IMG/VR virus record: IMGVR_UViG_2877973648_000001
Span: 1-20,998 of that record
Reading direction: 5' to 3' (one strand)
Source of the DNA: a virus
Lineage: Duplodnaviria; Heunggongvirae; Uroviricota; Caudoviricetes
DNA: 20,998 nucleotides
Positions 13,364 through 15,676 of the stretch are shown here, piece by piece (within the stretch, counting starts at the first letter, position 1; each line of letters starts with the position of its first letter). Both the position numbers and the translations under genes were made by a program. The notes under the pieces were generated by a model that saw only the letters and a program-made list of their open reading frames with translations, was not told where the DNA came from and did not search any database.

Positions 13364-14027
13364 CGGTGTAGTGAAATTTGTTGATGGGCCGAATATGGGG
13401 CTTGATTGGCTTCCATTTAGTTTTCAAAAAGAACCGATGGATATAGCTCAGGATAGAAGTACTAAAAAGATAGTACTTCAGTCATGCAGCCAGCTTTTAA
13501 AAACGACAGTACTACAATCAATTGCATTTAATCTAATGGCTAATGATCCCTGTAACTTTGCTTTTGGTAATAGTTCGGAATCTGAAGTGAAGAAGTTCAA
13601 AGATGGTAAGTTTTTACCAGCTATTGAAACCAGTTCAGTACTGAAGCCATTAGTAACAGATAAGAATGATAAAAACGCCGCCAATAACTCGAAACAAACA
13701 CAGATGATCAACGGCACGTTTATCTATTGGCTAAACCTTAATACACCAGGAAACCTACGCGGTATTACAACACGTGTTGTTCTGTTGGATGAAGTCAGTA
13801 CCTGTGAGATTACTGATGAAGGAAATCCAATTAAACTGGCTGAAGCACGTACCAGTACTTTCGGCAGTGATTCACTAGTCGTTGTATCTTCTACGCCATT
13901 GTATAAAGACGACTTAATCAATGCTGAATATAACCTTTCAGATAAGCGACGGTACTATGTTACTCATACATGCGGTCATGAATATACTTTCGAATGGGAA
14001 CAAGTAGCATTTGAATTTAAAACATGA
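13269..14027 (+). pseudogene. terminase large subunit N-terminal fragment (ends at the IS2-like insertion)
   Basis: Track ORF 252 aa; the stop at 14025-14027 is created by the first bases of the IS2-like element. Confidence 0.6.
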
Positions 14028-14061
14028 TCTTGACCCTCCATCTCCGAACAGCTTTTGTATC

Positions 14062-14943
14062 TTAAGTTAACGATGTCCGCTGCCGCCGGTATTCCCTCGG
14101 GGAGTGATATCCCAGCGCGCTGTGCGGGTGGTTTTCATTGTAATGCGTGAACGCTACTGCAAGGTTTCGCAGTGCTGTTCTCACATCCGGTTTTGGCATG
14201 AACGCGATATAGTCTTCTTTCATCGTTTTCACGAACCGTTCGGCCATGCCATTACTCTGCGGGCTGCTCACCGCTGTTGTGCAGGGCTCCAGATTCAGCT
14301 CTCTCGCGAACCTCCGCGTTTCATACGCGGTATACGCTGAACCGTTATCCGTCAGCCACTGCACCGCTGTGTCGGGCAACCTGTCGCCGAAGCGCTTTTC
14401 CACCGACCTCAGCATCACATCCTGCACGGTCGAACTGTCATAGCCTCCCGTGCTTGCTGCCCAGTCTATGGCCTCACGGTCGCAGCAGTCCAGCGCGAAC
14501 GTTACCCGCAGTTTTTCGCCGTTGTCGCAGCCGAACTCGAAGCCATCTGAACACCAGCGCATATCGCTTTCTGCCACCGCTATCTTGCCCTTATGTTCAA
14601 GCTTCGGTCGCTCTGGTTTGTGATGCAACAACAACAGGTTATGCTCGCTCATTATCCTGTAAAGCCGTTTGGCATTCACAGGTGGCTGTCCCTCTGTGCG
14701 ACGTTGCTTGCGCAGGATGCCCCACACGCGTCGATAACCATAACTCGGCATATCGCTGATAATGTTGAGGATAGCCGACAGTATTTCTGCGTCTGCTTCT
14801 TCATTACGCCGGTTACAGCGCCTGTCCTGCCAGTCGGCAGAACGGTTAATCCGCAGTGACAGTTGCGCACGCGACACGCCCATGGTCCGGCTGACCATGG
14901 CTATTCCCCGTCCTTTGGCAACAAGGGCGCGTGCGCTATCCAT
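14062..14943 (-). CDS. IS2-like transposase OrfB (DDE integrase domain)
   Basis: Track ORF 293 aa; ...[31 protein letters not shown]...[11 protein letters not shown]... resembles IS2 InsD. Confidence 0.8.
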
Positions 14944-15296
14944 TTTCGCGACTGACCGTACTCCACGGCTTCTTTCAGGATCTCAACTTCCATCGTCTTC
15001 TTGCCCAGAAGGCGCTGAAGCTTCCGGACCTGCTTCAGAGCAGCAGTAAGCTCAGAAGCAGGAACGACTTCCTCTCCAGCCGCAACGGCGGTGAGGCTGC
15101 CTTCCTGATATTGCTTCTTCCACTTAAACAGCAGGCTGGGCTGGATACCATGCAGGCGGGCGACATGGGAGACATTCATACCCGGCTCCATCGTCTGCTG
15201 GATAATGGCGATCTTCTCCTGAGGAGTTTTACGTTTACGGACTTCTTGCCCTAACAGGATCCCGGTCATCTCAAAATTGGCGTTAGTGTTAGACAT
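14901..15296 (-). CDS. IS2-like transposase OrfA (HTH)
   Basis: Track ORF 131 aa; ...[52 protein letters not shown]...[15 protein letters not shown]... resembles IS2 InsC. Confidence 0.8.
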
Positions 15297-15360
15297 ATAT
15301 TCAAGCCTATCTCTTATCTGGAGATACAGCTACTGTCCGGTGTTTCAGGGGGCTACATCA

Positions 15361-15676
15361 TTTGAATTTAAAACATTAGAAAACGGACGAGCGATACCTG
15401 ACAGTACTACTACCCGTTTAATTTGTCCTCATTGTAATGAAGAGATTGATGAACATACACGCCACCAAATGATCGACGGCGGTCGATGGATTGCTACTAA
15501 TAAAGATGGTGAACCGGGTGTAGTAGGGTATCAAATCAGCCGTATGTATTCCCCACTTAATACAATTACTGAAATGGTTTCAAAGTTTGCTGATGCTCTT
15601 TATAACTTCAATCTACAAACATTTTATAATAATGAACTTGGATTACCATTTGAAGATGAATATCAGAAAGAACTAG
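15361..15676 (+). pseudogene. terminase large subunit internal fragment between the IS2-like and IS5 insertions
   Basis: Reading frame [32 protein letters not shown]...[25 protein letters not shown]...; the track ORF 15277-15699 includes IS-derived sequence at both ends. Confidence 0.55.

What the first reader, a model, noticed from the sequence alone, without database searches (positions are those of the whole stretch)
14008..15376. IS2-like element flanked by a 15-18-bp perfect direct repeat instead of the expected 5-bp duplication
CATTTGAATTTAAAACAT occurs at 14008-14025 and again at 15359-15376, abutting both IS ends (at least 15 bp, TTTGAATTTAAAACA, lies wholly outside the IS termini). 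IS2 and the IS3 family normally generate 3-5 bp duplications. This could be an atypical staggered cut, insertion into a pre-existing repeat, or a recombination/assembly artefact.
Basis: seen in the sequence. Interest (0 to 1): 0.4.

Follow-up and report, generated by a model that had tools for sequence, protein, structure and literature searches.

The report
ISEcl1 insertion with 15-bp target duplication
A known jumping gene (ISEcl1, a relative of IS2) sits in a phage terminase gene flanked by a true 15-bp duplication, and this element and its close relatives usually make 15-16-bp duplications rather than the 5 bp expected of their family.

Summary
A 1336-bp IS3-family (IS2-group) element lies at 14025-15360. 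A perfect 15-bp direct repeat, TTTGAATTTAAAACA, abuts both ends.

It is not a pre-existing repeat. A viral contig 99.8% identical to the joined flanks carries the 15-mer once, with no gap. All 49 related terminase genes in which the flanking motifs could be found also have a single copy.

It is not an assembly artefact. The same junctions occur in other isolate and metagenome assemblies.

The decisive result comes from other copies. Among independent insertions of this element (87-100% identical), the perfect abutting repeats are 15 bp (16 sites), 16 bp (12) or 5 bp (2). No other length of 5 bp or more was seen. ISEc48-like relatives (about 78% identical) give 15 or 16 bp. IS2 itself and a 67% relative give 5 bp.

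By genetic context the element is ISEcl1. The long duplication is its normal mode, one helical turn beyond the IS2-group 5 bp. Discrete classes like this are described for IS481, IS1202 and IS481EU, but I found no report for the IS3 family. I could not check ISfinder.

The parts
13269..14024 (+). 5' part of the phage terminase large-subunit gene (GpA_ATPase domain), interrupted after codon FEFKT. The called ORF runs to 14027 because the element's first bases create a stop codon.
   Evidence: ORF list; RefSeq annotation of the source genome; Pfam GpA_ATPase on the same ORF in other assemblies.
14010..14024 (.). Left copy of the 15-bp target-site duplication, TTTGAATTTAAAACA.
   Evidence: It is single-copy at the empty site.
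14025..15360 (-). ISEcl1-type insertion sequence (IS3 family, IS2 group), 1336 bp, with genes on the minus strand. Ends are TGATCTTGACCC...GGGGCTACATCA. The orfB-proximal end (IRR) is at 14025 and the orfA-proximal end (IRL) at 15360.
   Evidence: [quoted passage not shown]
14901..15296 (-). orfA (131 aa, helix-turn-helix protein; 75% identical to IS2 InsC).
14062..14943 (-). orfB (293 aa, rve DDE catalytic domain with D133, D199 and E235; 62% identical to IS2 InsD). It lies in the -1 frame relative to orfA, with a 43-nt overlap.
   Evidence: RefSeq annotates a programmed frameshift.
15361..15375 (.). Right copy of the 15-bp target-site duplication.
15361..15676 (+). Continuation of the terminase gene ([10 protein letters not shown]...CPHC zinc-finger region, GpA nuclease part) up to the IS5 insertion.
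15677..16871 (+). IS5 (1195 bp) inserted in the same terminase gene, with its canonical 4-bp duplication CTAG (15673-15676 and 16872-16875). This is an in-window control showing that ordinary duplications are intact here.
16969..18189 (+). Third element (ISSen4-like, IS3 family, 1221 bp, ends TGACCTGC...GCAGGTCA) with no duplication. The terminase reading frame ends at its left border and does not resume on the right.

Best explanation
The repeat is a genuine target-site duplication, made when an ISEcl1-type element (IS3 family, IS2 group) inserted into a prophage terminase gene.

Shown here:
- The target had one copy of the 15-mer.
- The element's ends are fixed.
- Independent insertions of the same element, and of its ISEc48-like relatives, are flanked by site-specific perfect repeats of 15 or 16 bp, and rarely 5 bp. 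No other length of 5 bp or more was seen.

Inferred: the element's transposase (the OrfAB fusion) joins the two element ends to target phosphates staggered by 15-16 nt on opposite strands. Gap repair then duplicates that stretch. By analogy with IS2 and IS911, the ends would be presented as the abutted junction of a copied-out circle.

The canonical IS2-group stagger is 5 nt. Adding one B-DNA turn (about 10.5 bp) gives 15.5, which fits the observed mixture of 15 and 16. The two active sites would therefore attack the same face of the helix as in the 5-bp mode, one turn further apart. This implies a different or alternative transpososome geometry. Sequence-identical element copies gave 5, 15 and 16 bp, so one transposase can use both modes, with the long one dominant.
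For: - Repeat exact and non-random.
- Empty site: L181 matches the flanks joined with one copy of the 15-mer at 99.8% over 901 nt with no gap. All 49 related viral terminase genes in which the flanking motifs were found keep the same 34-residue spacing from YTFEWE to CPxC. E. coli homologues at 76% identity also have one copy.
- The same insertion and junctions occur in CP012378.1, GCA_037022885.1, GCA_902499975.1, one Logan contig and several ENA metagenome contigs.
- Survey of full-length copies 87-100% identical to the window element: exact abutting repeats of 15 bp at 16 sites, 16 bp at 8 sites and 5 bp at 2 sites. Four more plasmid sites have 16 bp.
- Degenerate 15/16-bp repeats flank an old, fixed K. 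pneumoniae chromosomal copy and L087.
- In E. coli complete genomes, copies with identical element sequence gave 15, 16 and 5 bp.
- ISEc48-like relatives (about 78% nt identity): 16, 15, 16 and 15 bp, plus one 15-bp repeat matching at 14 of 15 positions.
- Controls: IS2A of K-12 has ATTAC, 5 bp. A relative with 67% OrfB identity has AGTAT, 5 bp. IS5 in this window has CTAG, 4 bp.
- Discrete duplication classes about 10 bp apart, even within one element family, are described for IS481EU, IS481 and IS1202 (PMC10045372; PMC10132070).
Against: - No transposition event was observed. All evidence comes from fixed insertions in databases.
- About 22 of 48 flank pairs in the survey had no repeat, so the length distribution rests on the subset that kept both original flanks. 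Many of the repeat-less copies share one flank with another locus or are metagenome contigs, which suggests recombination between copies or chimeric assembly.
- The helical-turn geometry and the circle intermediate are inferred, not tested.
- The OrfB alignment to IS2 InsD shows only small gaps and no extra domain that would explain a wider stagger.
- No clear target consensus was found.
Confidence: 0.85

Rival explanations
1. The element inserted into a terminase gene that already carried a tandem or closely spaced duplicate of the 15-mer.
For: Only the AT-rich, low-complexity look of TTTGAATTTAAAACA.
Against: A 99.8%-identical empty site has one copy and no gap. All 49 related terminase genes with the flanking motifs have constant spacing. 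More than 30 other insertions carry repeats of the same length with unrelated sequences.
Confidence: 0.01
2. The repeat is an assembly artefact, or the product of homologous recombination between two copies of the element that had inserted about 10 bp apart in sister molecules.
For: Recombination between element copies does happen in this family. Several copies lack repeats and share one flank with other loci.
Against: Identical junctions occur in further isolate assemblies and several metagenome and Logan contigs. Recombination between independent nearby insertions would give a broad range of repeat lengths, not 15 or 16 at 28 unrelated sites. The source chromosome holds a single copy of this element.
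Confidence: 0.02
3. The long duplication is real, but the transposase active-site spacing does not set it. The two ends are joined in separate steps (one-ended attack, then replication or host processing), and host factors or DNA structure fix the second joint one helical turn further away.
For: From general knowledge, not tested here: IS3-family elements can use asymmetric first steps, and host processing of branched intermediates is described for IS911. The same element also yields 5-bp duplications (L017; Salmonella copy), so two pathways are conceivable.
Against: The lengths are very tight (15 or 16 only) across many hosts, replicons and base compositions (13-80% G+C in the duplicated stretch). 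This points to a protein ruler rather than to variable host processing. ISEc48-like relatives share the trait, whereas IS2 does not in the one E. coli copy examined here or in the literature.
Confidence: 0.1

Closest known systems
ISEcl1 (ISfinder name; IS3 family, first named from Enterobacter cloacae)
   Same: [quoted passage not shown] Published maps label that position ISEcl1 (PMC7305932, PMC9430460). It is 98.4% identical to the copy on about 1500 K. pneumoniae plasmids in PLSDB (those fetched are IncFIB/IncFII), a context published as IS1X1-ISEcl1. The length is 1336 bp.
   Different: It differs at three positions from the commonest E. coli copy. None of the six ISEcl1-mentioning papers whose text I searched discusses its duplication length. 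I could not see the ISfinder entry, so I do not know what direct-repeat length is recorded there.
IS2 (type element of the IS2 group, IS3 family)
   Same: Same organisation: orfA, then orfB in the -1 frame, a DD(35)E catalytic core, and similar terminal repeats with the GCCCC and CCAGACA motifs. OrfA is 75% and OrfB 62% identical.
   Different: IS2 makes 5-bp duplications (ATTAC at IS2A; literature). Its orfA-proximal end starts TA, whereas the window element has TG at both ends. The window element scores below NCBIfam's IS2 TnpB cut-off (413 against 597 bits).
ISEc48-like elements (NCBI name 'IS3-like element ISEc48 family')
   Same: About 78% nt and 75% OrfB identity, with the same length class (1333-1336 bp). 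They show the same 15/16-bp duplications at five sites.
   Different: The terminal sequences differ (TGTCCTTGACCC or TGTTCTTGCCCC). This is a separate element.
IS481, IS1202 and IS481EU elements with discrete duplication classes (about 4-6, 15-17 and 24-29 bp)
   Same: The length classes are spaced about one helical turn apart. In IS481EU one element family can produce more than one class (PMC10045372; PMC10132070). Their DDE transposases are related to those of the IS3 family.
   Different: Those elements encode a single transposase ORF without the orfA/orfB frameshift. The same paper describes the IS3 family as conservative: 3, 4 or 5 bp by subgroup. No class of about 25 bp was seen here.

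Membership tests
IS3 family | Two consecutive, overlapping ORFs, with orfB in the -1 frame and a programmed frameshift giving an OrfAB transposase | tested here: met
   orfA is 15296-14901 and orfB 14943-14062 on the minus strand, with a 43-nt overlap. Codon phases put orfB in the -1 frame (own arithmetic). RefSeq annotates a joined CDS with 'programmed frameshift'. The frameshift itself was not demonstrated.
IS3 family | DDE catalytic domain of the retroviral-integrase type (rve) with DD(35)E spacing | tested here: met
   NCBIfam transpos_IS3 scores 197 bits against a cut-off of 160. Pfam rve, rve_3 and HTH_21 hit the same protein. D133, D199 and E235 align with IS2 InsD.
IS3 family | Imperfect terminal inverted repeats ending 5'-TG...CA-3' | tested here: met
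   Ends are TGATCTTGACCC... and ...GGGGCTACATCA. They are conserved in more than 40 copies.
IS3 family, IS2 group | Target-site duplication of 5 bp (3-5 bp for the family as a whole) | tested here: not met
   Of 30 perfect duplications in this element's clade, 28 are 15 or 16 bp and 2 are 5 bp. The window copy has 15 bp. The element remains an IS2-group member by sequence. Only this feature departs.
IS3 family, IS2 group | Closest sequence similarity to IS2 OrfA and OrfB | tested here: met
   The best NCBIfam hits are IS2 TnpB (413 bits) and IS2 TnpA (199 bits), both below the cut-offs for IS2 itself. BLASTP gives 62% and 75% identity.
IS3 family | Copy-out-paste-in transposition through a circular intermediate with abutted ends | not testable with these tools
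   This needs PCR for circle junctions or an in vitro assay.
ISEcl1 (isoform) | At least about 95% nucleotide identity to the ISfinder reference sequence | tested here: inconclusive
Indirect evidence is strong: 98.6% identity to the copR/mcr-8.2 copy and 98.4% to the K. pneumoniae plasmid copy, both called ISEcl1 in published maps.
IS481 / IS1202 families | Single transposase ORF without an orfA/orfB frameshift, and family-specific transposase similarity | tested here: not met
   The element has two ORFs. NCBIfam transpos_IS481 scores 93 bits against a cut-off of 224. It resembles these families in duplication classes, not in membership.

The most novel reading that the evidence does not exclude
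A clade of IS2-group elements (ISEcl1 and ISEc48-like) has a transposase with two discrete target-joining geometries one helical turn apart: 5 bp rarely, 15/16 bp usually. That would extend to the IS3 family a behaviour so far described only for IS481, IS1202 and IS481EU, in an E. coli-tractable element with a close, well-studied 5-bp relative (IS2). The phenomenon itself is well supported. The uncertain part is whether it is already recorded, for example as a direct-repeat length in ISfinder.
Probability: 0.45. Interest if true: 0.6.

Novelty: new variant of a known kind. Interest (0 to 1): 0.5.

Why it matters
- **Classification.** Duplication length is used to classify insertion sequences and to annotate their ends. 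The IS3 family is treated as fixed at 3-5 bp. A widespread clinical element that usually duplicates 15-16 bp shows the rule is not safe within the family. ISEcl1 sits next to mcr-8.2 and on more than a thousand Klebsiella plasmids.
- **Annotation.** Tools that look for 3-5-bp repeats will mis-call this element's boundaries or treat its insertions as rearranged.
- **Mechanism.** How one DDE transposase produces staggers exactly one helical turn apart is an open question, raised for IS481EU. This clade would allow it to be tested in E. coli by comparison and domain swaps with IS2.
- **This window.** The result is ordinary: one of three element insertions in the terminase gene of a prophage that also appears to have lost sequence beside the third element.

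Tried and rejected
- **Pre-existing repeat:** rejected by the empty site.
- **Repeat belongs to the element's termini:** rejected, because the flanks differ at every other site.
- **Assembly artefact:** rejected by other assemblies that show the same junctions.
- **Name leads.** ISEcl2 (qnrS1 context) is unlikely: the qnrS1 plasmid shows only one place matching the element, so no second, truncated copy was detected. ISKpn1 is a REP-targeting IS1397 relative and not this element.
- **Genome-contig scan with the left end** gave only 9 loci, mostly contig ends or a 115-bp end fragment.
- **Uninformative look-ups.** P0010 (Hafnia), P0051 (Symbiopectobacterium), P0069, P0116 and P0075 gave single or rearranged copies without repeats.
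- **Target-site consensus:** none was evident in 27 sites.
- **A class of about 25 bp:** none was seen, although repeats up to at least 30 bp would have been detected.
- **Literature searches** for 15/16-bp duplications in the IS3 family found nothing.

Full report
**1. The observation**

The 18-mer CATTTGAATTTAAAACAT occurs exactly twice in the window, at 14008-14025 and 15359-15376. None of 100 dinucleotide-preserving shuffles gave two matches.

The sequence between the copies begins TGATCTTGACCC and ends GGGGCTACATCA. It carries two minus-strand ORFs. orfA is 131 aa (15296-14901). orfB is 293 aa (14943-14062) and lies in the -1 frame. With the element set at 14025-15360 (1336 bp), 15 bp (TTTGAATTTAAAACA) lie outside it on each side. 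The other three bases of the 18-mer are the element's own terminal CA and T, which happen to match the adjoining target bases. The 15 bp are five codons, FEFKT, of the interrupted gene.

**2. Source and setting**

The window is 100% identical to E. coli AREA_C483 chromosome NZ_CP123310.1. It lies in a prophage remnant upstream of mipA/yeaE.

The interrupted gene is a lambda-GpA-type terminase large subunit. Two more elements hit the same gene:
- IS5 at 15677-16871, with its normal 4-bp duplication CTAG.
- An ISSen4-like element at 16969-18189 with no duplication. The terminase frame does not resume beyond it.

**3. Is the 15-mer single-copy at the empty site?**

Yes.
- E. coli homologues at about 76% identity have one copy.
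- A scan of viral contigs with the reconstructed protein found 59 related loci.
- L181 (IMGVR_UViG_2698536647_000002) matches the window flanks joined with one copy of the 15-mer at 99.8% over 901 nt, with no gap.
- All 49 loci in which the flanking motifs could be found have the same 34-residue spacing from YTFEWE to CPxC.

**4. Is it an artefact?**

No. The same element with the same junctions and the same 15-bp repeat is present in other isolate assemblies (CP012378.1, GCA_037022885.1, GCA_902499975.1), in one Logan contig and in several ENA metagenome contigs. The insertion is fixed in a lineage.

**5. What do other copies look like?**

This was the decisive test.

*E. coli complete genomes and plasmids.* Copies 99.8% identical to the window element all have the same ends, but each has a different long repeat abutting them:
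- 15 bp at ydeE, at an integrase gene, at ydfI/ydfJ, at bcsB and at one other site.
- 16 bp at four further sites.
- One copy inside ISEcp1 has 5 bp (TCTGA).
- Two plasmid copies have none.

These copies are identical to each other in element sequence. One transposase therefore yields 15, 16 and 5 bp.

*Wider survey.* A metagenome scan with the right-end 22-mer, pooled with all loci fetched up to that point, gave 48 distinct flank pairs. These came from full-length copies 87.6-100% identical to the window element. Ten further plasmid loci were fetched and read afterwards.

| Exact abutting repeat | Sites |
|---|---|
| 15 bp | 16 |
| 16 bp | 8 |
| 5 bp | 2 |
| 0-1 bp | 22 |

- No site had a repeat of 6-14 bp or of more than 16 bp.
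- One further site has 15 bp with one mismatch.
- The old, fixed K. pneumoniae chromosomal copy has a degenerate 15/16-bp pair.
- Four more plasmid sites, including the copy next to mcr-8.2, have 16 bp. One plasmid copy (L257) has only a 3-bp match, which may be chance.

*Copies without a repeat.* Many share one flank with another locus or come from metagenome contigs. This fits recombination between copies or chimeric assembly. The common K. pneumoniae plasmid copy abuts an IS2 end fragment.

**6. How far does the trait extend?**

| Element | Identity to window element | Duplication seen |
|---|---|---|
| ISEc48-like (5 sites) | about 78% nt, 75% OrfB | 16, 15, 16, 15, and 15 with one mismatch |
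| Salmonella relative | 92% nt | 5 bp (GATAT) |
| Unnamed relative (P0118) | 67% OrfB | 5 bp (AGTAT) |
| IS2A of K-12 | 62% OrfB | 5 bp (ATTAC) |

The long mode characterises a sub-clade of the IS2 group. The short mode persists within that sub-clade at low frequency.

**7. Identity of the element**

NCBIfam places OrfB in the IS3 family (197 bits against a cut-off of 160). Its closest model is IS2 TnpB, below the cut-off for IS2 itself. Pfam domains are HTH_Tnp_1 on OrfA and HTH_21, rve and rve_3 on OrfB. The DD(35)E residues align with IS2.

The copy between the copR-type regulator and mcr-8.2 (L259) is 98.6% identical to the window element. Published maps call that position ISEcl1 (PMC7305932, PMC9430460, PMC8969419, PMC6030107). 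The 98.4% copy on about 1500 K. pneumoniae plasmids in PLSDB corresponds to the published IS1X1-ISEcl1 module. I therefore call the element an ISEcl1 isoform. The ISfinder reference itself could not be consulted.

**8. Mechanism**

Shown: the duplications are target-derived, tightly bimodal (5 against 15/16), independent of host, replicon and base composition, and produced by identical element copies.

Inferred: the transposase joins the element ends to target phosphates 15-16 nt apart. Adding one B-DNA turn (about 10.5 bp) to the IS2-group stagger of 5 nt gives 15.5. This explains both the size and the 15/16 mixture, and it means the same helical face is attacked one turn further along.

PMC10045372 describes the same pattern for IS481EU, IS481 and IS1202. 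That paper speculates about outer against inner subunits of a tetramer, alternative multimers, or DNA looping. It also states that the IS3 family is conservative, with the IS2 subgroup at 5 bp. PMC10132070 groups IS1202 elements by short and long duplications.

The OrfB alignment with IS2 shows no added domain, and no target consensus emerged. The determinant is therefore unknown.

**9. Novelty**

The element is known, and the insertion itself is an ordinary gene disruption in a decaying prophage. What appears not to be described is that ISEcl1 and its ISEc48-like relatives normally make 15/16-bp duplications and occasionally 5 bp. Five full-text searches found nothing on this. The ISEcl1 papers I searched do not mention duplications.

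ISfinder may list the length, and I could not check it. I therefore rate this a new variant of a known kind with moderate interest, and put the chance that the trait is truly unreported at about one in two.

Noticed in passing
window 16969-18189: An ISSen4-like IS3-family element (1221 bp, ends TGACCTGC...GCAGGTCA) has no target duplication (flanks CCAGC / TTCTG). The terminase frame stops at its left edge and unrelated sequence follows on the right. This suggests an element-mediated deletion of the rest of the terminase gene and of whatever lay downstream of it.
   Followed up: partly
window 15677-16871: IS5 lies in the same terminase gene with its canonical 4-bp duplication CTAG. Three different insertion sequences lie within 4.2 kb of one phage gene.
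   Followed up: yes
window about 5778-9258 (L001 6754-10234): RefSeq annotates a group II intron reverse transcriptase/maturase (ltrA, window about 6341-7849, minus strand). It lies between the two halves of another, frameshifted IS3-family transposase gene that carries an 'AL1L pseudoknot' feature. This looks like an intron inserted into an insertion sequence.
   Followed up: no
L255, L261-L263 (K. pneumoniae IncFIB/IncFII plasmids; about 1500 records share the copy): This ISEcl1 copy has no duplication. Its orfB-proximal tip abuts, across a single G, the tip of a 98-bp IS2 left-end fragment (99% identical to IS2 positions 1-98). IS1 sequence lies on both sides. An end-to-end junction of two different IS2-group elements with a 1-bp spacer resembles a circle or tandem-dimer junction.
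   Followed up: partly
L004, L005, L006, L011, L012 and plasmid hits H97-H100: A fragment of only the first 115 bp of the element (95-98% identical) recurs with the same outer flank in Kluyvera, Klebsiella grimontii, a Haemophilus sputorum contig and Klebsiella/Enterobacter plasmids, in three of the four plasmid hits under an IS1 transposase annotation. The same outer flank also occurs next to full-length copies in metagenome contigs.
   Followed up: no
L241 (E. coli CP043744.1): A 1336-bp hybrid element. Its first 60 nt at the orfA-proximal end are identical to the window element, while its other end is IS2-type (…GGGGCAAATCCA). From position 137 onward it is about 80% identical to IS2. It has no duplication and looks like a recombinant between ISEcl1 and an IS2-like element.
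   Followed up: partly
NZ_CP061754.1 (E. coli O18ac:H14 strain 873.10), hit H6: This chromosome holds 15 places matching the element, against a median of 1 per genome. It would be a good strain for looking at recent transposition events and circle junctions.
   Followed up: no
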